The translations under genes were made by a program, and so were the position numbers. DNA of 64,000 bases from a virus: UHGV virus genome UHGV-1366603. One strand, given 5' to 3'. Below the pieces are notes generated by a model. It searched no databases. It saw only the letters and a program-made list of their open reading frames with translations, and had not been told where the DNA came from. Positions within the stretch are counted from its first letter, which is position 1; each line of letters starts with the position of its first letter. Of this stretch, positions 2,658 through 47,206 are shown one piece after another.

Positions 2658-5612
2658 TTAGTCTGCGGTGGTGTCGTGACGGTTGTAAACGATAACAACA
2701 TCGTCTTTCAGACCGATGTCACCGCTGGCTTCAATATCCAGTTTCTTACCAATCGTTGCGCGTGCAGCTTCGGATACCACAGTAAACAGACGCATGTCTT
2801 TGTCTGGCCCCATCGCATCCAACTCAACGCCGATAATCGACGTGTCAAGCGTTTCGCTGAGCTTATTACCAATCTCTGTTGCCGAGATAGTAAGATGTGA
2901 ACCCAAGTAGTCGTTGATAACTTGAGACGTTTTCTTACGAATCTGCGTTAACAGATCGCTGTTGCTACGGTTAGCCGCTGTGAGGTAATAACGAACGGTA
3001 AACTGGTTTTCAGCCGGTATCGGTGTAACCACCCCGTCTTCGGTACGCGCATCGATATAACCCATCGTGGTGATAGGAACGAAATACCCTTCCGTACGCT
3101 CTAACAACATCGGTTTTAACGTCGGTAGAACCACGGTCACGTAGTTAACGATATTCTCAATAACCGCGTTCAGATAGGATTTCGCAGACGCTGTGGTAGC
3201 GAATTTATAACGTGCGTCGAAGACTGCCATTTCACTACGGAACTTAATAGAACGTGATTTCGCAATCTTAGGATTACCGTACTCGTCTTTTACTAAGTCC
3301 CCTTCGCGGTGCAGGATAATCTGCTGGCCGGTTTCGTCAAGCTTAGGATCGCCTTTACGGTGTTCATAAGTGATTTGTAGCGGTGGTGTACGGCCTGCGT
3401 CGTACGTGTAAACCGGAACCCCATTCTCATCACGTTTCACCACGTCAATTTCCCACGTTGCTAATACGTCTTTGTCGTAATACTCGTAGTTGATGCTGTC
3501 AGTAACAGCACGAGCTTTACGCCAATAGTACGTCATCGCTTTACCCAGTTCGATTTTGAATATCTCGTGGGTAATACCGATAGCGTCACGAGAAGGCGCT
3601 GTGATTAACGTATCCATCTCTACACGTTCGTAGTTCCCAGGGTAATAACCTGTGCAACCGTAGAACAGGTTAAAATCTGTCAACAGAGGAACGGGTGTTT
3701 CCGTTGGGTTACTTCCGTTAATGCGCGTGTTGGTGAGTACCAGTTCGTCGTTACGGTCAACGTCCAGGTTAGTTTCCAGCAAGAACTCCCAAACACGTTC
3801 GCTGCCCTGCTTACCGACTAACGTACCGTTAATGTACGCCAAGGTGTTATCGGAATTACGAGGGCGGAAAGACAGCTGTGCAAAGACTTGGTCATCAGTC
3901 AGTGCCTGGTAAGGTGCTTCTGACTTCGTAACCGTACGCAACACATAACCTGCTTCCGTTTTCTCGATAGTGTAGTCAGCGGTAACGACGCTGAGCTCCG
4001 TCGAGACGTTGGTCGCAATAAAGCGTTTGGAGTTTAATAGCGGTTTATCCAACTGGTAAATACGCACGTCAATCGCTTTGTTGTTAATATCAACAACGTA
4101 ATGGAACGGTGTAAACAAATAACGGTTCGTGTTTGCTGCGTTAATCAGGTCTTCCTTACGCATGGTCTTCGCTAACACCGTCATTTCGGCATCTACAGTC
4201 AGACTGGTATCCGTAAAGCGATACAGCGTATCAGGAAGAATGGTCAGGCGATTACCGTTGACTTTCACTGTCGGAAGATTAACCAGCTCGTTCCAGGAGA
4301 AATAGAACGGGGCAGTAATCGTACCAATCGGTGAACTGACGTTAGCAATTGTCGATTCCAACATCGGTGCTGTCATGAAGTACGTACGACTGGTCACGTA
4401 GTCGTTAGGTTTAGACAACGTGAGACCGTAATCGGAAACCGTAGCTTCAAGCTGCTTTTCTGTCACAGGCAGTTTACGAGCACCTACGGCGTTGTTAACA
4501 ACGCGAGTACGTAAATCGCTGAACGAAAGCTGACTACGACCACCCGACAGCATCTTCCCAGCTTTTGCTGCAAGCTGTTTAATAGAGAACGCTTTAATCG
4601 GGTTGATATAGTTCGCGTCGTACTCTTCGTTTAAATCGCGTAGACTGAAACTATACTCATCAGACGGGTATGCAGAGATGTCCAGCTCCAACGGCCCTAA
4701 GGTCGTATAGACGTCCATCCTGATAGTCCCACTGACGAGATTCTTCGCCATGTAAATAGATGGAATCGTACAACGGATGTTACCGTTACCCACCTGAATC
4801 AATGCTGTTGGTGTGTTCGGGTCGTAAACATCGCGACTGTGGGTGTGCTGAATCTCTACCCACTTGTTGCTACCCGTTGCCTTCATCCAAACACGAACGT
4901 AGAAGAATTTGTTAGTGTAAGCACGGGTCATGACGAAAGTATTGTTACCTTCGACGGTGTTACTTTCTTCTTTCACCGCATACTGCATAACCGGGATATG
5001 AATAGCCAGCAGCTGTGACGACGTTGTGTTAGTGGACGTTAGTTCCCATTCCAGTGCGTTCGTGGAAACTGGTGAAATCGGTGATTGTGTTTCAGTAATC
5101 CACAGTACCTGGAAAGCCGGGTTCTCGTTCGTTCCGTATGGAAGTACACGGATTTCAATTGGATATTGAATAGCAAACGTGTAACCAGAAACCGTAAAGA
5201 CCGTGTCACGTGGGATAACGACTTTACGAACCCCCGCGATTTGCAACGGATACGCTTTCGAGATTAAGCTGTCAACGTCAATTAACAGTAACAGTTCTGT
5301 AGTAGCAGGCTGCGCAAAGACGTCAACGTAATCCACGTCTGACATGTGTCGGAACAGGTCATCGTACGTCTGTGCCATTGACGGGAACGTTTTAGGAATA
5401 GATTCCTGGAGCCCCATCAACGTCGCGTGCCCCATCATTGTTCCCATTTCTGCCAAATAAACGACAGGGTCGGTAGGGTCACGGAGATAAATCTGACCAT
5501 CGGCATCTTCAACATCTTGAAGCTGGTTTAGCAGCATTGTCTGCATCGCCGCAGGGTTGTGTGCGAACAGCAGAAGTTTCTTTGCCAAAGTATCGTAAGT
5601 TGTTGAACTCAT
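2658..5612 (-). CDS. hypothetical large protein (984 aa), probable structural protein
   Basis: Long minus-strand ORF; start overlaps stop of upstream minus gene at 5612. Confidence 0.8.
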   Translation of the reverse strand: MSSTTYDTLAKKLLLFAHNPAAMQTMLLNQLQDVEDADGQIYLRDPTDPVVYLAEMGTMMGHATLMGLQESIPKTFPSMAQTYDDLFRHMSDVDYVDVFAQPATTELLLLIDVDSLISKAYPLQIAGVRKVVIPRDTVFTVSGYTFAIQYPIEIRVLPYGTNENPAFQVLWITETQSPISPVSTNALEWELTSTNTTSSQLLAIHIPVMQYAVKEESNTVEGNNTFVMTRAYTNKFFYVRVWMKATGSNKWVEIQHTHSRDVYDPNTPTALIQVGNGNIRCTIPSIYMAKNLVSGTIRMDVYTTLGPLELDISAYPSDEYSFSLRDLNEEYDANYINPIKAFSIKQLAAKAGKMLSGGRSQLSFSDLRTRVVNNAVGARKLPVTEKQLEATVSDYGLTLSKPNDYVTSRTYFMTAPMLESTIANVSSPIGTITAPFYFSWNELVNLPTVKVNGNRLTILPDTLYRFTDTSLTVDAEMTVLAKTMRKEDLINAANTNRYLFTPFHYVVDINNKAIDVRIYQLDKPLLNSKRFIATNVSTELSVVTADYTIEKTEAGYVLRTVTKSEAPYQALTDDQVFAQLSFRPRNSDNTLAYINGTLVGKQGSERVWEFLLETNLDVDRNDELVLTNTRINGSNPTETPVPLLTDFNLFYGCTGYYPGNYERVEMDTLITAPSRDAIGITHEIFKIELGKAMTYYWRKARAVTDSINYEYYDKDVLATWEIDVVKRDENGVPVYTYDAGRTPPLQITYEHRKGDPKLDETGQQIILHREGDLVKDEYGNPKIAKSRSIKFRSEMAVFDARYKFATTASAKSYLNAVIENIVNYVTVVLPTLKPMLLERTEGYFVPITTMGYIDARTEDGVVTPIPAENQFTVRYYLTAANRSNSDLLTQIRKKTSQVINDYLGSHLTISATEIGNKLSETLDTSIIGVELDAMGPDKDMRLFTVVSEAARATIGKKLDIEASGDIGLKDDVVIVYNRHDTTAD

Positions 5613-12322: not shown

Positions 12323-12352
12323 CTCAGATAGATATTACCTTAGTGAGATTAC
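12323..12352 (+). promoter_or_regulatory. promoter-like motif copy 1 (CTCAGATAGATATTACCTTAGTGAGATTAC)
   Basis: 30-mer identical to 47177-47206; lies after terminator and 46 nt upstream of ATG. Confidence 0.55.
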
Positions 12353-14860: not shown

Positions 14861-16369
14861 ATGCAACAGTATTTTGAAATTCCGTCGTTAGACGCGACCA
14901 TTCGCAAACCAATAATCGATGGCGTTATACAACGTGTACTTAATGAATCAGGTATTGATAAAGCAGCGGTTGTTTTCCTCGATGAATTCAATAGCGCACA
15001 TCAGCCCGATTCCACGTTAGGCGACGGTACAGAAGTTGAGTACAGCTCGCCTGAAAAGGTGTATGTTGAAGTAGAAGAAGAACGCGATGAGTGGGCCAGA
15101 ATCAATCGTCAGGTTGGTCAGCAAGCCGAACCGTACTTCTTTGAAAACTCCGTCGATCAGGTGCGTGCCTGGCCCGTTAGAACGATGTATAACGTAACGG
15201 TAACGTTACGACGTACCAGTGCCTCGCGCGATGAGTTATTGCGCTGGACAAACCGTTTAGACTCGTTAGTGGACATGGGTCGGTATTCGACAATGACCGA
15301 GTCAGAAGCGTTTTATTATATTCCGAAGCCAGCACTGAAACTGTTGAATGCCTGCTATGTTGCCGCAGGAACTCGTGTACCGACGTTTGACGATTTTAAA
15401 GCCTATCTCAAAGCGTACTTTACCCCCGACGTGTTCCGCGCTGCTAACGTTGCCGGTGGTCAGGAATCTATTGCGGTACGCTATGCACCTACTCGCTTAG
15501 AGACTGTATACGACGTTCAGACACCTGCCTGGGATAAAGACGAGAACCACTGGGAAGCCACATTCGTTGTGCGTTTCTCTTATCAGCGTCCTGAAGAGAT
15601 TGTGGTTTCGTATCCGTATATCATCAACCAGACGCCGCTCCCTGATGAATACTGGCCAGAGATAGACCCACCGTGGGTGTCTAACGAAGAATTGGTGTAT
15701 CGTCATCCGCAACAAAAGAATCTCGATTCAACGTGGTGGATTAACGAAACCCGTCAGTATATTCGTTTACCGTATCTACTGTCACCGACAGAACAGTTCC
15801 ACCGTACACATTCCCCGTTAAAAGATAAACTCTTACACGTTTTCGGAACAGACGTTGTATTCGATGAAGACAACATGAGCTCACCGAAAGTGTTATCTGT
15901 GGAGGATTTACCGTACGAGTGGAATCCTGATTTGTTGCCGTATATCGAACACTGTCGTGCAATAGACCCTACCGGACAGACAGGTGTCTTCCGTGTGGAG
16001 TTGTTCGAAGAAGGCCAAATCATCGAACCGCGTTTCTATCATTGGGAAGACAATACCTTCTTTTTGAAAGGTCGTGATTTAAAAGTTAACAAGAGTTACT
16101 ACTTAACTGAATCGGTGATGTTCGACTGGCGAGGGATGAACCTGTGGCCACTCCAGCTTTATCCTAAAGCCGCGAAAGTGTTGATAGAATGGTTATTCCC
16201 GAAATGGGATGTACCGGACTGGTGGTGGGATAAACCCGTATTACCGCCGAGTGTTATCGACGACATTAATAAACTGATTCCTAACGTAGAAGCCCGCGTC
16301 TTGCTGACGGTGCTGAACTCGACCGTGATTACCATGCGAGGGACAGAGAATGCTCAAAGCGAAGCGTGA
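14861..16369 (+). CDS. hypothetical protein (502 aa), probable structural
   Basis: Long ORF, first of five-gene block ending at terminator 20418. Confidence 0.8.
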   Translation: MQQYFEIPSLDATIRKPIIDGVIQRVLNESGIDKAAVVFLDEFNSAHQPDSTLGDGTEVEYSSPEKVYVEVEEERDEWARINRQVGQQAEPYFFENSVDQVRAWPVRTMYNVTVTLRRTSASRDELLRWTNRLDSLVDMGRYSTMTESEAFYYIPKPALKLLNACYVAAGTRVPTFDDFKAYLKAYFTPDVFRAANVAGGQESIAVRYAPTRLETVYDVQTPAWDKDENHWEATFVVRFSYQRPEEIVVSYPYIINQTPLPDEYWPEIDPPWVSNEELVYRHPQQKNLDSTWWINETRQYIRLPYLLSPTEQFHRTHSPLKDKLLHVFGTDVVFDEDNMSSPKVLSVEDLPYEWNPDLLPYIEHCRAIDPTGQTGVFRVELFEEGQIIEPRFYHWEDNTFFLKGRDLKVNKSYYLTESVMFDWRGMNLWPLQLYPKAAKVLIEWLFPKWDVPDWWWDKPVLPPSVIDDINKLIPNVEARVLLTVLNSTVITMRGTENAQSEA

Positions 16370-17721: not shown

Positions 17722-18261
17722 GTGTCAGTGAAACGTAGTGCAGCGTTTATGCTGTTCCATAAGTGGGTAGCATGGCGTGTCCCTGAATGGACAACCATCA
17801 CCCAGTATATGTCGCAAGAACACGGATTGTTCTTGCCGGATGACGAAAAGAAAGCACGAGCGATTTTGTTGAACAAGAAAACGGTGTATATGCGGCCATT
17901 TGAAGTGGCGGTGTATGCTGAGACCGGTGCTGCGTTAGATGTTCATGATCCGAACGACGGTATTATCGTTTACGGGTATATCATGGAACACCTGGCAGAT
18001 TGGTTACATTACATGCAAGAACCTCACCTGACGACGCGTAAAGTGCCGATAGAAGGACTACGTCAGTTCAACGCCTTAGCATGTAAACTCTTTCCTGTTG
18101 CTAACCGTTACGGTTACTTTAAGAAACCGGAAGTGACGATGGCGACGTCGGTACAAGCGTTATTTGGAGAGGTGCGTTTAGAAACGCAGCAACACCGTTT
18201 TAACGATACGATAATGCGACGTATAGAAGCGATTTATCGTAAAAGGGGAGGTATACTGTAA
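17722..18261 (+). CDS. hypothetical protein (179 aa)
   Basis: ORF with apparent GTG start 1 nt after previous stop. Confidence 0.65.
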   Translation: MSVKRSAAFMLFHKWVAWRVPEWTTITQYMSQEHGLFLPDDEKKARAILLNKKTVYMRPFEVAVYAETGAALDVHDPNDGIIVYGYIMEHLADWLHYMQEPHLTTRKVPIEGLRQFNALACKLFPVANRYGYFKKPEVTMATSVQALFGEVRLETQQHRFNDTIMRRIEAIYRKRGGIL

Positions 18262-19580
18262 TGTCGTTTGGTCGGTTACAGAACATAGCAAACGTGCACA
18301 TTGCACAAGCGGCGGGATTACCGGCCATCGAATACGTACCTATCATTACGGTACGTGGTACAGTTATCAGCGTATTTAAAACGTTGTCGATAATCCATGC
18401 CAGTAACTTCGCACAGGACTTAACGACCATCACCCATCTTACCGTGATGATACCGTTGAGCCAACAGCGTGTGTTAACGTCCTCCGCAGACGGGGATTTG
18501 TCCGTGAAGATCTTAATGCGGACGATGAACAAGAAAACCGTTGCGAAACTCGACTATCGGGGTATCGTCGTGAACAACCACGATCCCGATATGGAATCGC
18601 CCACGATGTTCTTAGGTGAGTCTGACCAGAAAGCGTTAGCGGTCGTCACCCTGGAACTGATGGACGAGTCAATGTGGTTCTTACGTTGCCGTCAGGTCGG
18701 TGGGATTTATCACGAGACAGATGGCCTTAGCGTTGTTCGTGCGCTGCTGGCAGATACGTTACCTACCGGTGATGCGCCAGAAGGTCAGTTGGTGGGCGTG
18801 GAATACGAGGAAGAGGAGCAACAACCGTATCGGGATATTTTGATTCCTGACTCGGAAAGTTTCCTGTCTGTGTTCGATTACCTTCAGAATCGTTACGGGG
18901 TTTATAGCCAAGGATTGGGGGTGTTCCTTTACAAACACCGTTGGTATATTTTCCAACCTTGGGACTCTAAGAAGTTTTCATCAGCGAAGAATAAGCTGGT
19001 GATTATAAACCTACCGAAAGAGAAAGCAGCGTATCTGAATAAGACCTGCCACATTGACGGTGATGTGATTTACCTGATTTGTGGGGGTGATGTCCACACC
19101 TTCGAAGATAAAGACTCCTTAGCGCTAAACCAAGGTACCGGTTATCGTGTGGGGTCTATCCGTGCGTTGGATGGTCGTGCGTCCTCGTTCTCGTCAGGCG
19201 ACGTTTCTGCTACAACGTCTGATTCGTTCGTCTCAGCGGCTGACCCGACGCAATATCCAGGCGGCGTAGTTAACGCACCAATTGACCCGAACCAACACTT
19301 CTCGGACACAGATAAACCGCAACGGTCTAAGTTAGCGGCGGCGAAAGGGACGTTAACCGCAACAACCTGGAACGCTTCAACGTATGGCTTACTCCGTCCG
19401 GGGATGGCAGTAAAATACATTTATGCGAATAACTATGGTGTATACACGCGTTACGGAACATTAGTTGCAGAAGTTTTCCAAGGTGCAATTGATGGCGGTT
19501 CAGCGGCTTCACCACGGTTTAATACCATTAGTCAGTTGACGTTGTGGCTGACTAATGAAAATTTTACATCCACAACGTAA
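18261..19580 (+). CDS. hypothetical protein (439 aa)
   Basis: TAATG junction, AGGGGAGG RBS. Confidence 0.8.
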   Translation: MSFGRLQNIANVHIAQAAGLPAIEYVPIITVRGTVISVFKTLSIIHASNFAQDLTTITHLTVMIPLSQQRVLTSSADGDLSVKILMRTMNKKTVAKLDYRGIVVNNHDPDMESPTMFLGESDQKALAVVTLELMDESMWFLRCRQVGGIYHETDGLSVVRALLADTLPTGDAPEGQLVGVEYEEEEQQPYRDILIPDSESFLSVFDYLQNRYGVYSQGLGVFLYKHRWYIFQPWDSKKFSSAKNKLVIINLPKEKAAYLNKTCHIDGDVIYLICGGDVHTFEDKDSLALNQGTGYRVGSIRALDGRASSFSSGDVSATTSDSFVSAADPTQYPGGVVNAPIDPNQHFSDTDKPQRSKLAAAKGTLTATTWNASTYGLLRPGMAVKYIYANNYGVYTRYGTLVAEVFQGAIDGGSAASPRFNTISQLTLWLTNENFTSTT

Positions 19581-19612
19581 GTTATGTCGACAGCAACCTA
19601 AAGGATTTGTTA

Positions 19613-20413
19613 ATGAGCAATTTACTTACTTTCCGCATGTCTGGTCAAACGTTAATGCAGATTGACGAGTACGAAAAAGAACATTTCGCTAAACCGTCCA
19701 AACTGTTAGAACGTTGCTTAAAGGTTATTCCAGGCGGCGAGCATTGTCAGCTAGATTTCGTCATGGCGTCTTCTGCTGACAAAACGGTCTCTGTTATCTA
19801 CACGGTTGACGGAGTACAGGGCCATCGCTTATTACCGATTGAAGAAAAAGGTTCTTTGGGTAATTTGTTGTTCTTGCACGCAATCACGACAGCGGTAGTG
19901 ACGGGTGCACTGGAAGCACAGTACGGTTTCGCGTATTGCTATTTCTACGCACAGAAACTGGCGAATGCGGTAGTTCCAGGGGAGCCGGAAACGTATCCGA
20001 AGTATATCGAACGTTTGCTTCCGACACACTTTGCTGAGTCTGACGACTATGAGTTCAATGCTTTCCGTTTCACGATGATTGGCGAAGCACGCGATCCTGA
20101 AAACACCATCGCGTTACGTGCTGTTGTTCGTTACGCGGTAATTTCGTCTGACAGCGGAATGGCAAGCAACTTCAACGAAGTGTTCCCGGTTATGCAACTA
20201 GGTCCGTATATCACGTTTAACGCGTACGTACCGTTTACTTGTCAGTTAATCGGCCCGCAGGATAACGATTCTATCCTCCCGATTACTGAAGAGAAAGGTC
20301 TGCATATTCGTGACGCCGTAGAAGTCATCAACGATAAACGTTTTACGATCTCATCGAAAAGCGGCATTGCTGATGAAGAACTTGCGGTCGTGAACAAAAT
20401 GCAAGTGATGTAA
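19613..20413 (+). CDS. hypothetical protein (266 aa)
   Basis: Start set at ATG after AAAGGA RBS (track uses TTG at 19607). Confidence 0.75.
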   Translation: MSNLLTFRMSGQTLMQIDEYEKEHFAKPSKLLERCLKVIPGGEHCQLDFVMASSADKTVSVIYTVDGVQGHRLLPIEEKGSLGNLLFLHAITTAVVTGALEAQYGFAYCYFYAQKLANAVVPGEPETYPKYIERLLPTHFAESDDYEFNAFRFTMIGEARDPENTIALRAVVRYAVISSDSGMASNFNEVFPVMQLGPYITFNAYVPFTCQLIGPQDNDSILPITEEKGLHIRDAVEVINDKRFTISSKSGIADEELAVVNKMQVM

Positions 20414-20417
20414 AATT

Positions 20418-20457
20418 ATCCCGTTACCTTTGTGGGTAACGGGATGTCCTTTTATTT
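20418..20457 (+). terminator. intrinsic terminator
   Basis: TCCCGTTACC-TTTGTG-GGTAACGGGA hairpin then T-rich tail. Confidence 0.8.
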
Positions 20458-20577
20458 ACTCGTAAACGCGTCTTAGACGTTGTTTTACACCTTAAGACGA
20501 TTAATGGTGTTTAAAAAATAAAAGGTCGTCAGAATGCGATACAGCGCGTTTTAGAGGGTGTTTTAATTAAAATATTT

Positions 20578-20610
20578 TCAGATATATATTACTTAGGTGA
20601 GAGAATTACG
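20578..20610 (+). promoter_or_regulatory. promoter-like motif (TCAGATATATATTACTTAGGTGAGAGAATTACG)
   Basis: Variant of the 12323/47177 motif, contains TATATTAC and GTGAGA; 39 nt upstream of ATG 20650. Confidence 0.5.
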
Positions 20611-20649
20611 TAATACTCATTTATCGAATACCTAATTAGGAGCTATATC

Positions 20650-20793
20650 ATGATTTCTGTAAAACACAAAAAAGCTATCTTCGCTGTTGTTATCGCTGTT
20701 GTTCTGGGTTGCCTGTACCTGGATATCGACAAAGGCTACGACACTTGCATCGACAACGGTAACTCCGTTGCGCAGTGCACTGGTCGTGGTTAA
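20650..20793 (+). CDS. small single-pass membrane protein (47 aa), highly codon-optimised; missing from ORF track (<60 aa)
   Basis: TAGGAG RBS; MISVKHKKAIFAVVIAVVLGCLYLD… hydrophobic helix; own promoter-like motif and terminator. Confidence 0.7.
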   Translation: MISVKHKKAIFAVVIAVVLGCLYLDIDKGYDTCIDNGNSVAQCTGRG

Positions 20794-20798
20794 TGTAT

Positions 20799-20828
20799 AA
20801 GGCACCTTCGGGTGCCCTTAATTTTTTA
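20799..20828 (+). terminator. intrinsic terminator (UUCG tetraloop)
   Basis: GGCACC-TTCG-GGTGCC followed by T-run. Confidence 0.8.
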
Positions 20829-20847
20829 TCTATTGGAGTATTTTTAA

Positions 20848-21663
20848 ATGAAAACTATCAAAGACTATTTTCCGACCGGCATCAGTAGCGACCATTTCGT
20901 ACCAGCGGATTCGATGGAAATCATCAGTAAGTCCAGTAGCGGTGAGTTTGTTATTTACCTAACTAATGTAGGAGGTAGACCGAGTTTCATTCTCCTCGAG
21001 CCTAAAGAAGTAAGTGTCTGTACGGTTGCTGTAAATGTTTCTTGCAGCCTTAGCTGGTTGAAGTCCAGATTGCTACGCTTGCTCGTGGTTAATACTGACC
21101 CAGTAGTACGCTTAGAGCGATTAAAAGCAATGAATGAAGTTATCCTGGGTTTTCTGCTACATCCTATTTACGGTAACCCTAAAGTCGCAGAAGCAATACA
21201 AAACGTACAGTTGGTGGAGTGGAGTGATATTGACTACGAGCGTGCCTCCGAATTTGTATTACAGGCAGACGACAACACCGGTGTGTTCTCACGAACGTTA
21301 GATAATGTAACGGTAACTGCACGTGTGTTGTTTGGTTTACAGCGCGTAGAGTTTGAATTGAAACACGTCTACGTGAGCAATAAACCGGAGATGGTGGAAA
21401 CGTTGATTCGTGCGTTCGCATACCCGTTAGATGGTGAATGGGAACAGCAGATTAATGATGCGTTAGGAGCCATGCATTTCCTGGCTGAAACGTTAAGGAA
21501 GGATGAGAAATTGAAAGGTCGTGTTTATCCAGAACACGATTTTGTTTGTGAAGAATGTGGAGCACAGTATCAAATCCGTGTTCCTTTAACCGGCCTAACA
21601 TTCCCGCAAGCCAACGTGCAATGTAAGGAATGTGGCCATGTTCAATACGTAGCGATTAAATAA
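20848..21663 (+). CDS. hypothetical protein (271 aa) with C-terminal CxxC…CxxC zinc-ribbon
   Basis: ORF with GGAG RBS; C-terminus CEECGAQYQ…CKECGH. Confidence 0.8.
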   Translation: MKTIKDYFPTGISSDHFVPADSMEIISKSSSGEFVIYLTNVGGRPSFILLEPKEVSVCTVAVNVSCSLSWLKSRLLRLLVVNTDPVVRLERLKAMNEVILGFLLHPIYGNPKVAEAIQNVQLVEWSDIDYERASEFVLQADDNTGVFSRTLDNVTVTARVLFGLQRVEFELKHVYVSNKPEMVETLIRAFAYPLDGEWEQQINDALGAMHFLAETLRKDEKLKGRVYPEHDFVCEECGAQYQIRVPLTGLTFPQANVQCKECGHVQYVAIK

Positions 21664-21668
21664 AAGCA

Positions 21669-21713
21669 ACCCCTAATCCCGAAAAGGATTAGGGGTACAC
21701 TTTATTTATTTTC
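21669..21713 (+). terminator. intrinsic terminator
   Basis: CCCCTAATCC-CGAAAA-GGATTAGGGG then T-rich tail. Confidence 0.8.
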
Positions 21714-21737
21714 GCTCTTAAAAAAGGAAATTGTGTC

Positions 21738-47176: not shown

Positions 47177-47206
47177 CTCAGATAGATATTACCTTAGTGA
47201 GATTAC
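47177..47206 (+). promoter_or_regulatory. promoter-like motif copy 2 (CTCAGATAGATATTACCTTAGTGAGATTAC)
   Basis: Identical 30-mer to 12323-12352; same 46-nt spacing to ATG and similar leader. Confidence 0.55.

What the first reader, a model, noticed from the sequence alone, without database searches (positions are those of the whole stretch)
20578..20828. Unannotated monocistronic unit: promoter motif, 47-aa highly expressed single-pass membrane protein, terminator
ATG 20650 to TAA 20793 encodes MISVKHKKAIFAVVIAVVLGCLYLDIDKGYDTCIDNGNSVAQCTGRG. It has a TAGGAG RBS, optimal codons, a promoter-like motif with TATATTAC upstream and a UUCG hairpin terminator downstream, but is below the ORF-track length cutoff. 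Small abundant membrane proteins in phages often mediate superinfection exclusion, lysis timing or inhibition of host envelope or defence proteins.
Basis: seen in the sequence. Interest (0 to 1): 0.55.

Follow-up and report, generated by a model that had tools for sequence, protein, structure and literature searches.

The report
Hyper-expressed early jumbo-phage envelope miniprotein
This is a real, conserved 47-residue gene of an enterobacterial jumbo phage, with its own virion-RNA-polymerase-type early promoter and terminator and the strongest codon optimisation in the whole 222-kb genome; it most likely makes a very abundant small envelope-anchored protein whose function nobody has studied.

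Summary
ATG 20650–TAA 20793 is an intact 47-codon ORF with a TAGGAG SD 7 nt upstream, a promoter-like element (20576–20598) and a UUCG hairpin plus U-run (20801–20827). It is a genuine gene: syntenic orthologues in 61 SPN3US/Machinavirus-type jumbo-phage records, dN/dS 0–0.47, PHROG family phrog_8574, and a RefSeq annotation (WP_262880969.1, hypothetical protein). So it is not unannotated in public records. The promoter belongs to a conserved class (3 copies in the window, 8 in this phage's genome, 7 in SPN3US, all on one strand and intergenic). It matches the experimentally mapped virion-RNAP early promoter of AR9 (AAATATATATTAT-N6-G), which predicts +1 at G20599. CAI is 0.90, the highest of all genes in the genome (major capsid protein 0.71). 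The protein has a basic N-terminus, a 16-residue hydrophobic helix and a near-invariant C-terminus, DY-x-x-C-x-x-NGNS-x-A-x-CTGRG-stop, predicted to be a Cys-stapled helical hairpin outside the cytoplasm. No Pfam, NCBIfam, PADLOC, PDB or Rfam match exists. Best reading: an abundant early N-in/C-out envelope miniprotein, probably protecting the envelope or excluding superinfection. Function and topology are inferred, not shown. Moderately interesting; a new member of a known kind.

The parts
20417..20446 (+). Strong intrinsic-terminator-like hairpin ending the upstream 268-aa gene (19607-20413). It insulates the small unit from upstream transcription.
   Evidence: 13-bp stem plus T-run; -20.9 kcal/mol, z = -5.8.
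20529..20559 (+). 31-nt element TCAGAATGCGATACAGCGCGTTTTAGAGGGT at about -70 to -40 of the predicted start site. It is identical to intergenic DNA of many IncX1-type and other enterobacterial plasmids. Its 3' half is conserved at this locus in related phages and is repeated at 20467-20487. Possible protein-binding or regulatory site; role unknown.
   Evidence: 31/31 identity; direct repeat D1; conservation in relatives visible.
20560..20598 (+). Promoter element: A/T-rich tract, then TTTCAG-ATATATATTAC (20576-20592), then the spacer TTAGGT (20593-20598). Virion-RNAP early-promoter type.
   Evidence: conserved at 86-95% in 89 phage records, 376 places; 7-8 copies per genome, 3 in the window, one strand, intergenic; AR9 consensus AAATATATATTAT-N6-G+1; TSS 6 nt downstream in phiKZ and phiR1-37.
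20599..20599 (+). Predicted transcription start (G, 6 nt after the conserved element). Inferred by analogy, not mapped.
   Evidence: rule from AR9, phiKZ and phiR1-37; in 22 of 23 leaders a hairpin begins within 4 nt of this position.
20599..20649 (+). 51-nt 5' UTR. It has a weak 5'-terminal hairpin (20601-20618) and is otherwise unstructured. SD TAGGAG at 20637-20642.
   Evidence: -2.7 kcal/mol, z = +0.98; hairpin -1.5 kcal/mol here, much stronger in most paralogous leaders; UTRs of 50-54 nt in most copies.
20650..20793 (+). CDS for a 47-aa protein: basic N-terminus (1-8), hydrophobic helix (9-24), and the C-terminal module DIDKGYDTC33IDNGNSVAQC43TGRG with two invariant Cys.
   Evidence: (phrog_8574, E = 3.4e-23).
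20801..20827 (+). Intrinsic-terminator-like hairpin GGCACC-UUCG-GGUGCC plus a U-run. It marks the end of the ~230-nt predicted transcript.
   Evidence: Erwinia phage Huxley (L013) has a hairpin at the same place with a different stem sequence but the same loop and U-run.

Best explanation
The unit is an early gene of a phiKZ-type, RNAP-encoding enterobacterial jumbo phage related to SPN3US. The virion RNA polymerase, injected with the DNA, starts at G20599 from a conserved early promoter. A ~230-nt mRNA with an unstructured leader and a strong SD is translated very efficiently, and most transcripts end at the UUCG hairpin, with some read-through feeding the downstream genes. The 47-aa product is inserted into the inner membrane N-in/C-out through its single hydrophobic helix. 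It displays a 23-residue periplasmic module in which Cys33 and Cys43 staple a helix-turn(NGNS)-helix hairpin ending in the invariant free C-terminus TGRG. Because it is made early and in very large amounts, it most likely acts stoichiometrically on an abundant envelope target to protect the infected cell: superinfection exclusion, or blocking envelope damage or envelope-based sensing, in the manner of T4 Imm/Sp. What is shown: the gene is real and under purifying selection, the promoter belongs to the class, codon bias is extreme, the family signature exists, and the phage encodes the RNAP. What is inferred: early timing, abundance, topology and the disulfide. The exclusion or protection function is speculative.
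For: Gene reality: 61 phage records carry an orthologue in conserved synteny between a virion protein, a 266-aa gene and the DnaB-like helicase. dN/dS is 0-0.47. The ORF matches phrog_8574 over its full length. Promoter: the element AGATATATATTAC-N6-G matches the mapped AR9 vRNAP promoter AAATATATATTAT-N6-G, and in phiKZ and phiR1-37 the TSS also lies 6 nt after the element. phiKZ early promoters are an extended -10 plus a T-rich tract, and reviews say every RNAP-encoding jumbo phage has such a motif. There are 7 copies in SPN3US, 8 in this phage's 222-kb genome and 3 in the window, all on one strand and intergenic. The genome encodes a 77%-identical homologue of the SPN3US RNAP beta-like subunit gp241. 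Abundance: CAI is 0.90, first of 199 genes and of 619 short ORFs genome-wide, with the major head protein at 0.71. In every relative the orthologue's CAI exceeds or roughly equals the highest-scoring neighbouring gene, and SPN3US gp66 ranks 6th of 228. The leader is unstructured. Topology: N-terminal net charge is +2 to +4, the hydrophobic core is 13-22 residues (median 18) and the C-terminal charge is -2 to +2 in all 33 members. AlphaFold gives pLDDT 86 with helix 4-35, a turn, and helix 40-44. Invariant residues are C33, G37, S39, C43, T44, G45 and R46. The same Cys-loop module occurs four times in tandem after membrane segments in an unrelated protein, P0033.
Against: No transcript, protein or phenotype data exist for any family member; nothing was found in the literature and the SPN3US infection proteome paper could not be read. 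Promoter class and timing rest on analogy with AR9 and phiKZ; no TSS has been mapped in any SPN3US-like phage that I could find. CAI as high as the head proteins, together with a position among virion genes, would also fit late or continuous expression. The hydrophobic segment in the window protein is only 16 residues, and VVLGC fits a permissive lipobox pattern, so cleavage or lipidation is possible. There is no similarity to any known exclusion, lysis or anti-defence protein. The near-identity of the unit between lineages that are ~75% identical elsewhere could reflect recombination instead of selection, which would weaken the argument drawn from silent-site conservation.
Confidence: 0.55

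Rival explanations
1. The N-terminal 20 residues are a cleavable Sec signal peptide (SPase I), or in Cys21-bearing members such as the window's a lipoprotein signal (SPase II). The active product would then be a 26-27-aa disulfide-bonded periplasmic peptide, free or lipid-anchored, possibly sorted to the outer membrane because residue +2 is Leu. It would act like T5 Llp or Cor-type receptor blockers, or as a soluble periplasmic inhibitor.
For: Position 20 is A, G or S in 73% of members, the highest of any core column, and Cys follows in 48%. The window's VVLGC and relatives' VLAC and ALAC fit the permissive PROSITE-style lipobox, and UniRef names one member 'Lipoprotein'. The window's hydrophobic stretch is only 16 residues.
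Against: Cys21 is absent from half the family, including SPN3US, so lipidation cannot be the conserved mechanism. The -2 residue is Leu, which is not canonical for lipoboxes (established knowledge of the consensus L-[AS]-[GA]-C). The hydrophobic run continues past the putative cleavage site (C-L-Y-L / S-Y-I-T-L), with a median core of 18 residues, which is typical of anchors and not of signal-peptide h-regions. AlphaFold predicts one uninterrupted helix from 4 to 35. SignalP and LipoP were not available.
Confidence: 0.25
2. It is a lysis-related small membrane protein (holin, antiholin, pinholin-like or spanin-like) and not an early envelope-protection factor.
For: It is a small single-TM phage protein. 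There is a weak hit to an Rz-like spanin PHROG (phrog_4297, E = 0.042).
Against: The hit is not significant and covers only the hydrophobic segment. The gene is far from the endolysin-like genes: GH108 and SLT-domain genes lie elsewhere in the 222-kb genome, and the SPN3US endolysin gp198 is 110 kb away. An early-type promoter combined with the highest expression signal in the genome is the opposite of what a lethal hole-former tolerates.
Confidence: 0.07
3. It is a late, morphogenesis-associated membrane factor, for example one that anchors or nucleates capsid assembly at the membrane. The high CAI would then simply match the structural genes around it.
For: It sits between virion-protein genes and the major capsid region. 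Its CAI is in the class of the head proteins.
Against: It is preceded by the vRNAP early-type promoter, and in SPN3US it leads an operon of small non-structural genes. The conserved part of the protein is the predicted periplasmic module, which cannot reach cytoplasmic capsids. None of the records seen here annotates the orthologue as a virion or structural protein; it is 'hypothetical protein' wherever it is annotated.
Confidence: 0.08
4. The conserved ~255-nt island reflects an RNA-level function (a structured or dual-function RNA), with the ORF incidental or secondary.
For: Against lineage L006/L008 the whole promoter-to-terminator unit is ~97% identical while the flanks are ~70-75%, and this includes silent sites (4/48 third positions differ, versus 0.43-0.48 in neighbouring genes) and the UTR.
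Against: There is no Rfam match. The transcript fold gives only z = -2.0 and the UTR gives z = +1.0. In more distant relatives the DNA diverges freely while the protein is conserved, for example phiEaH2 vs L015 with 14 synonymous against 2 nonsynonymous changes. Extreme codon bias or a recombination event explains the island, and a second such island at 21514-21721 shows that mosaicism occurs in this region.
Confidence: 0.03

Closest known systems
Virion-RNAP early promoters of phiKZ-related jumbo phages (AR9: AAATATATATTAT-N6-G+1; phiKZ: extended -10 plus upstream T-rich tract)
   Same: A highly conserved AT-rich ~11-nt element with G+1 six nt downstream. The core is nearly identical to AR9's (ATATATATTA[C/T]). 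There is an A/T-rich tract upstream, several copies per genome at the heads of operons, and the phage encodes multisubunit RNAPs.
   Different: There are only 7-8 copies per genome, versus 28-41 in phiKZ and AR9. The conserved block is much longer (~35 nt, including TTTCAG and YTAGGT-GAG). It is followed by a 5'-terminal hairpin starting at +1 in 22 of 23 leaders. No TSS has been mapped experimentally in this clade.
T4 Imm and Sp (early superinfection-exclusion membrane proteins)
   Same: Small, early-expressed, membrane-anchored phage proteins acting at the envelope of the infected cell. This is the proposed mode of action.
   Different: There is no sequence or fold similarity. Imm and Sp are 83-97 aa. 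No functional data exist for this family. The resemblance is by analogy only.
MgrB (47-aa E. coli inner-membrane regulator of PhoQ)
   Same: Same size and same layout: a short basic N-terminus, one TM helix, and a ~20-residue periplasmic tail with two functionally essential Cys about 10 residues apart. This is recalled from established literature and was not tested here.
   Different: There is no Pfam MgrB hit at E <= 0.1. The Cys-loop sequence and the invariant C-terminal TGRG are unrelated. MgrB is a low-abundance regulator, whereas this gene carries the strongest expression signal in its genome.
T5 Llp / Cor-type phage lipoproteins that block receptors
   Same: Early, small, exported phage proteins that prevent superinfection. 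The window protein has a lipobox-like VVLGC.
   Different: Cys21 is present in only 48% of family members and the lipobox is non-canonical. There is no homology.
PHROG family phrog_8574
   Same: Full-length match, 47 of 47 profile positions, E = 3.4e-23. The window protein is a member.
   Different: The family has no assigned function, so membership gives no mechanism.

Membership tests
phrog_8574 (PHROGs, unknown function) | Significant full-length match to the family HMM | tested here: met
   E = 3.4e-23, residues 1-47 aligned to profile positions 1-47 of 47.
vRNAP early promoter of phiKZ-related phages | Highly conserved AT-rich ~10-13-nt element centred near -10, with the TSS (G) 6 nt downstream | tested here: met
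   The sequence AGATATATATTAC-TTAGGT-G (20580-20599) compared with AR9 AAATATATATTAT-N6-G. The TSS itself is not mapped.
vRNAP early promoter of phiKZ-related phages | Over-represented motif in several copies per genome, in intergenic DNA upstream of operons | tested here: met
   7 copies in SPN3US, 8 in p98232, 3 in the window, all on one strand and intergenic; 376 places in 89 phage records.
vRNAP early promoter of phiKZ-related phages | The phage encodes a virion multisubunit RNAP | tested here: met
   The 222-kb record that is 99% identical to the window encodes a 77%-identical homologue of SPN3US gp241. SPN3US carries the split beta/beta' genes.
vRNAP early promoter of phiKZ-related phages | Transcription within minutes of infection, independent of new protein synthesis | not testable with these tools
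   Needs RNA-seq or primer extension with and without chloramphenicol.
Bitopic (type II, N-in/C-out) small inner-membrane protein | One hydrophobic segment long enough to span the membrane, with positive charges on the N-terminal side | tested here: met
   Core of 16 residues here and a median of 18 in the family; N-terminal charge +2 to +4 against C-terminal -2 to +2 in all 33 members; KD maximum 2.96 over residues 10-24; AF2 helix 4-35.
Bitopic (type II, N-in/C-out) small inner-membrane protein | Experimentally verified membrane insertion and orientation | not testable with these tools
   Needs PhoA/LacZ or GFP fusions and cell fractionation.
Bacterial lipoprotein (SPase II substrate) | Canonical lipobox [LVI][ASTVI][GAS]C with an invariant Cys at +1 | tested here: not met
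   The window has V-L-G-C, with Leu at -2 outside the consensus. Cys21 is present in only 48% of the family and absent in SPN3US. The permissive PROSITE-style pattern is matched, so individual members cannot be excluded.
MgrB family (Pfam PF13998) | Match to the family HMM | tested here: not met
   No Pfam family matches at E <= 0.1.
Rz-like i-spanin (phrog_4297) | Significant HMM match, a periplasmic coiled-coil domain, a partner o-spanin, and a lysis-cassette location | tested here: not met
   E = 0.042, covering only the TM segment. The protein is too short for a coiled-coil domain. It is not near the endolysin-like genes.
Moron (autonomous promoter-gene-terminator insertion) | Present in some genomes and absent at the same site in close relatives | tested here: not met
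   The gene is at the same syntenic position in every relative examined. Only the promoter and terminator flanks vary.
Any Rfam RNA family | Covariance-model match | tested here: not met
   The only hit in 20300-21000 is a chance-level one (E = 0.85), on the opposite strand and upstream of the unit.
Known anti-defence or defence proteins (PADLOC) and NCBIfam families | HMM match | tested here: not met
   No hits for the window protein.

The most novel reading that the evidence does not exclude
The family is a previously unrecognised class of immediate-early, hyper-abundant envelope effectors, universal in SPN3US/Machinavirus-type jumbo phages of Enterobacterales. A membrane-tethered, disulfide-stapled periplasmic hairpin with an obligatory free TGRG C-terminus would bind and neutralise a specific abundant host envelope component within minutes of injection. 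That would give exclusion of competing phages or protection of the early infection stage, by a mechanism unrelated to Imm, Sp, Llp or Cor.
Probability: 0.25. Interest if true: 0.65.

Novelty: new member of a known kind. Interest (0 to 1): 0.42.

Why it matters
Very little is known about what nucleus-forming and related jumbo phages do to the cell envelope in the first minutes of infection. A 2026 review of the field does not mention superinfection exclusion or small membrane proteins at all. This gene is one of only 7-8 units driven by the early-type promoter. It carries the strongest translational-selection signal in the genome and is conserved across Salmonella, Escherichia, Erwinia and Proteus jumbo phages. 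Its sequence signature is sharp enough to guide mutagenesis (C33, C43, NGNS, the terminal TGRG). It is therefore a cheap, well-defined target for a first functional test of early envelope remodelling or exclusion in this phage group, which includes phages used for Salmonella and Erwinia biocontrol. The promoter plus leader is also a compact candidate part for early, high-level expression from engineered jumbo phages.

Tried and rejected
(1) Structured ncRNA or riboswitch: the Rfam evalue-mode scan of 20300-21000 was empty apart from a chance hit, and the folds of the UTR and the whole transcript are unremarkable. Rejected.
(2) Sigma-70 promoter: the consensus scan found none upstream of the ORF. 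The element is a phage-type promoter.
(3) Homology-based function: Pfam, NCBIfam, PADLOC, PDB sequence search, Foldseek against PDB and BFVD, and an exhaustive HMMER search of 1.84 billion representatives found only family members, distant look-alikes and chance-level hits.
(4) The weak Rz-spanin and AimP hits are matches to hydrophobic segments only. Rejected.
(5) Context of the most divergent members (P0030, P0032): the contigs are too short to inform.
(6) Literature on SPN3US gp66: none found, and the infection-proteome paper PMC6384053 is not held.
It was usable only after filtering on the extended consensus.
(8) My early reading that the window holds only one promoter of this class was wrong: two ATAGATATTAC variants exist at 12325 and 47179.
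(9) The TCGACTAT box is not a general promoter. It is largely confined to the early-type leaders of SPN3US, and the window's leader lacks the canonical form.
(10) GCGTTTTAGAGGGT as a dispersed repeat: it is not enriched elsewhere in the window.
(11) Paralogue search among other short high-CAI ORFs of the genome: none are related.
Full report
WHAT IS THERE. The window is part of a jumbo phage distantly related to Salmonella phage SPN3US (Seoulvirus) and to Erwinia Machinavirus phages. A 500-bp query around the finding has no near-identical record among 50,697 phage genomes. It is 99% identical to two ~222-kb circular records deposited as 'plasmids', from E. coli 98232 and Enterobacter ludwigii.
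- ATATATATTAC at 20582-20592
- TAGGAG at 20637-20642, 7 nt before the ATG
- ATG at 20650 and TAA at 20791-20793
- the hairpin GGCACC-UUCG-GGUGCC at 20801-20816, then CUUAA and six U
The upstream 268-aa gene ends with its own strong terminator at 20417-20446 (-20.9 kcal/mol, z = -5.8). The hairpin after the small ORF folds at -11.6 kcal/mol, z = -2.7.

IS THE ORF A GENE? Yes.
- tblastn finds orthologues in 61 phage records from Salmonella, Erwinia, Escherichia and Proteus hosts.
- They always lie in the same neighbourhood: virion structural protein, a ~266-aa protein, (variable small genes), the small ORF, and then a reverse-strand DnaB-like helicase.
- They are annotated as 45-47-aa hypothetical proteins: SPN3US_0066, SEGD1_067, ChrisDB gp82, pSALSNUABM04_072, and RefSeq WP_262880969.1.
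- The protein matches PHROG family phrog_8574 over all 47 profile positions (E = 3.4e-23).
- Every relative keeps an intact frame.
- The 1-4 nucleotide differences from four close metagenomic relatives are all synonymous third-position changes.
- Nei-Gojobori dN/dS in more distant pairs is 0-0.47, for example 14 synonymous against 2 nonsynonymous changes between phiEaH2 and a relative.
- No Rfam family matches. The predicted transcript is only marginally more structured than shuffles (z = -2.0), and its 5' UTR is less structured than shuffles (z = +0.98).

THE PROMOTER. Only ~40 bp of the 500-bp query is conserved in SPN3US-like phages, at 93-95%, and it is exactly the promoter-like element. 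A more sensitive search finds it at 376 places in 89 jumbo-phage records, including Cronobacter CR5 and Vibrio, Aeromonas and Serratia phages, almost always in unannotated intergenic DNA. I fetched the complete SPN3US genome and the complete 222-kb genome of the window's own phage.
- SPN3US has seven copies, ahead of gp5, gp55, gp66 (the orthologue), gp101, gp135, gp180 and gp249.
- The window's phage has eight.
- The window itself has three: the canonical one at 20579, and two ATAGATATTAC-CTTAGT variants at 12325 and 47179. This corrects my earlier reading.
- All copies are on one strand, are intergenic, and are preceded by an A/T-rich tract.
The consensus is ...AAAAATAATTT-CAG-ATATATATTAC-YTAGGT-GAG. 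The experimentally mapped virion-RNAP early promoter of Bacillus phage AR9 is AAATATATATTAT-(6N)-G+1. The same paper states that in phiKZ and phiR1-37 the TSS also lies 6 nt downstream of an extended AT-rich element (PMC5312081). phiKZ early promoters are described as an extended -10 box plus a T-rich upstream tract (PMC8244752). A review states that such a motif can be found in every RNAP-encoding jumbo phage (PMC7598289). The window's phage encodes a 77%-identical homologue of the SPN3US RNAP beta-like subunit gp241. By this analogy +1 is G20599. This is an inference, because no TSS has been mapped in this clade. It gives a 51-nt leader and a transcript of ~230 nt. In 22 of 23 distinct leaders of this promoter class, a hairpin begins within 4 nt of the predicted +1; the stem sequences are unrelated and the mean z is -1.95. 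That independently supports the +1 assignment. The window's own hairpin is weak (-1.5 kcal/mol).

EXPRESSION LEVEL. On the Sharp-Li E. coli scale the ORF has CAI 0.90. The 60 long genes of the window average 0.31 +/- 0.09. The next two are the major head protein (0.71) and an internal head protein (0.69). Genome-wide in the 222-kb record it ranks first of 199 genes of at least 100 aa and first of 619 ATG ORFs of 30-99 aa, where the next is 0.66. In every relative the orthologue's CAI (0.49-0.70) exceeds or roughly equals the highest-scoring neighbouring gene; in Caitlin it is 0.541 against a neighbour at 0.553. SPN3US gp66 ranks 6th of 228. The first genes behind the other six SPN3US early-type promoters are unremarkable at 0.24-0.50. 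The codon optimisation is therefore specific to this gene and not a by-product of promoter proximity. Together with the ideal SD and the unstructured leader, this supports very high translation. It remains an inference.

AN IDENTITY ISLAND. Against a second lineage (IMG/VR loci L006 and L008) the flanking genes are ~74% identical in DNA, with third-position divergence of 0.43-0.48. The stretch 20576-20830, from the promoter core to the end of the U-run, is ~97% identical, with 4 of 48 third positions and no first or second positions changed. Strong codon selection plus functional constraints on the UTR and terminator could explain this. So could a recent recombinational exchange of the whole unit. 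A second island at 21514-21721 and a short one at 18249-18338 show that mosaicism occurs in this region. I could not separate these explanations. An RNA-level function is unlikely, because more distant relatives conserve the protein and not the DNA.

THE PROTEIN. I aligned 33 family members of 45-51 aa. They share:
- a basic N-terminus, with net charge +2 to +4 in every member
- a hydrophobic core of 13-22 residues (median 18; 16 in the window)
- a C-terminal module with invariant C33, G37, S39, C43, T44, G45 and R46, and nearly invariant Y30, N36 and G47: DY-x-x-C-x-x-NG(N/H)S-x-A-x-C-T-G-R-G-stop
The protein always ends right after TGRG. AlphaFold2 run on this alignment gives pLDDT 86: one helix from 4 to 35, a turn at NGNS, and a short helix at 40-44 that folds back. 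That geometry could bring the two invariant Cys together. I could not measure the distance, so the disulfide is inferred. The positive-inside pattern predicts an N-in/C-out orientation, which would put the Cys pair in the oxidising periplasm.
An exhaustive HMMER search of 1.84 billion representatives found only 12 proteins at E <= 0.001. These include more distant 45-51-aa look-alikes, one of them in Erwinia phage Phobos. They also include a 381-aa protein carrying four tandem AY[ND]xCIGNGxSxxQC modules after membrane segments, which indicates that the Cys-loop is an autonomous module located outside the cytoplasm.
Cys21, in a lipobox-like context (VVLGC, VLAC, ALAC), occurs in 48% of members including the window's. 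The -2 Leu is non-canonical, and SPN3US-type members lack the Cys. Small residues at position 20 (73%) are only mildly enriched. A cleaved signal or a lipid anchor therefore remains a live alternative, which I rate at about 0.25. SignalP and LipoP were not available.

FUNCTION. Nothing in Pfam, NCBIfam, PADLOC, PDB sequences, or Foldseek against PDB and BFVD gives a lead. No paper mentions the SPN3US orthologue. A 2026 review of jumbo-phage biology contains no mention of superinfection exclusion or small membrane proteins. The reasoning is therefore from anatomy. The protein is predicted to be made in the first minutes and in very large amounts. Its conserved business end lies outside the cytoplasm, it has an obligatory free C-terminus, and the gene is not near the lysis genes. 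This points to a stoichiometric envelope effector, and the best-precedented role for such a protein is early superinfection exclusion or envelope protection, as with T4 Imm and Sp. An MgrB-like regulator of a sensor kinase has the same size and the same TM-plus-two-Cys layout. That resemblance is recalled from the literature and was not tested here beyond the absence of a Pfam hit, and it fits the extreme expression signal less well. Lysis, morphogenesis and RNA-level roles are less likely for the reasons given under the rival explanations.

MONOCISTRONIC? In the window and its close relatives, the ORF is bracketed by terminators, and the next gene (20848-21663, with a C-terminal zinc-ribbon-like motif) starts 20 nt after the U-run with no recognisable promoter of its own. 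The dominant transcript is therefore probably monocistronic, with read-through supplying the downstream genes. In Huxley-type phages the same hairpin arrangement exists with a different stem sequence. In SPN3US the orthologue overlaps the next gene (TAATG) and leads a seven-gene operon. In ChrisDB and pSal-SNUABM-04 it lies second to third in an operon whose early-type promoter sits further upstream. The monocistronic layout is thus specific to this lineage.

VERDICT. The gene is already catalogued (a RefSeq hypothetical protein and a PHROG family) but wholly uncharacterised. It is a new member of a known kind, the small early phage envelope proteins. What makes it notable is the strongest expression signal in a 222-kb genome, one of only 7-8 early-type promoters, and a sharply defined Cys-loop/TGRG signature. 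Interest is moderate at 0.42. It would rise to about 0.65 if the protein proves to be a new exclusion or envelope-takeover mechanism, which I put at a probability of about 0.25.

Noticed in passing
window 20529-20559 (also 20467-20487); L145 2501-2545; L146 728-772 and ~925-960: A 31-nt stretch just upstream of the promoter (TCAGAATGCGATACAGCGCGTTTTAGAGGGT) is 31/31 identical to intergenic DNA on 876 PLSDB plasmids and 551 E. coli replicons. Most are conjugative; one example is IncX1. There it lies ~290 nt upstream of a Phd/YefM-RelE (stbDE-like) operon and is itself repeated ~190 nt downstream. Its 3' half (GCGTTTTAGAGGGT) is conserved at the same phage locus in SEGD1, ChrisDB and Caitlin, and is directly repeated in the window. 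It looks like a reiterated protein-binding site shared by plasmids and this phage. Its meaning is unknown.
   Followed up: partly
whole window; NZ_CP173450.1 (L151-L155), NZ_CP134650.1: The window's phage exists as ~222-kb circular records deposited as plasmids of E. coli 98232 (urine, Egypt) and Enterobacter ludwigii. The exact 47-aa protein cluster is seen on at least 1000 contigs, many of 220-238 kb, in Salmonella and E. coli isolate assemblies. This suggests that a lytic-type, RNAP-encoding jumbo phage is frequently carried along with isolates, through a carrier state, pseudolysogeny or contamination.
   Followed up: partly
window 20576-20830, 21514-21721, 18249-18338 versus L006/L008: There are sharp islands of 93-100% nucleotide identity in a ~55-80% background between two phage lineages. 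One coincides exactly with the promoter-to-terminator unit. Another covers the 3' end (zinc-ribbon-like part) of the next gene plus its terminator. The cause could be mosaic recombination or unusually strong local constraint.
   Followed up: partly
window 12325-12344 and 47179-47198; SPN3US 4429, 56296, 65415, 94241, 113988, 165689, 223279 (L139-L143): The early-type promoter class has only 7-8 members per genome. In 22 of 23 distinct leaders, a hairpin starts at or within 4 nt of the predicted +1, and its stem sequence differs between copies. This conserved 5'-terminal stem-loop, possibly for mRNA stabilisation or polymerase escape, does not seem to be described for this clade.
   Followed up: yes
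SPN3US leaders (L139-L143); L002 ~2930, L004 ~2935, L013: A TCGACTAT box sits 15-25 nt upstream of the start codon in all seven SPN3US early-type leaders. It also lies directly upstream of the small-ORF orthologues in Machinavirus phages, where no promoter is adjacent. The window's leader has only a degenerate version (ATCGAATAC). Its function is unknown; it could be a translation or RNA-processing signal.
   Followed up: partly
SPN3US 165689-165783 (L142 ~15691-15783): The leader of SPN3US gp180 contains, after the 5' hairpin, a full terminator-like hairpin with a U-run (GGCTACCTTCGGGTAGCC TATTCTTTTTT) before the start codon. This could be a transcription attenuator within an early leader.
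   Followed up: no
NZ_CP173450.1 9743-9952 (L151), 3492-4200 region of reverse strand (L151), and 151405-153492 (L154 1405-3492): Three features lie outside the window in the same phage. (1) A DUF1471 (BhsA/YdgH-like enterobacterial periplasmic stress protein) gene has the second-highest CAI among the short ORFs (0.66). (2) Another early-type promoter drives a 153-aa protein with a classic cleavable signal peptide (MKIFTSFLIGLFAIGFNTAHA). (3) A ~2-kb unannotated, extremely AT-rich repeat region could be an origin or the genome termini.
   Followed up: no
P0033 (381 aa, Logan metagenome): A non-phage-like protein with N-terminal membrane segments carries four tandem copies of the same Cys-loop module (AY[ND]xCIGNGxSxxQC-x-AY-x-AYGGTG). 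The module is therefore a reusable mini-domain found outside the cytoplasm.
   Followed up: no
window 20632-20805 (-): A 57-aa GTG ORF lies antisense to the small gene. It is a shadow ORF caused by the strongly biased sense codons, and there is no evidence that it codes for anything.
   Followed up: partly
window 20848-21663 (+): The downstream 271-aa gene (phrog_10180) ends in a CxxC...CxxC zinc-ribbon-like motif, with weak Pfam Zn_ribbon hits below threshold. This C-terminal part is far more conserved between lineages than the rest of the protein.
   Followed up: no
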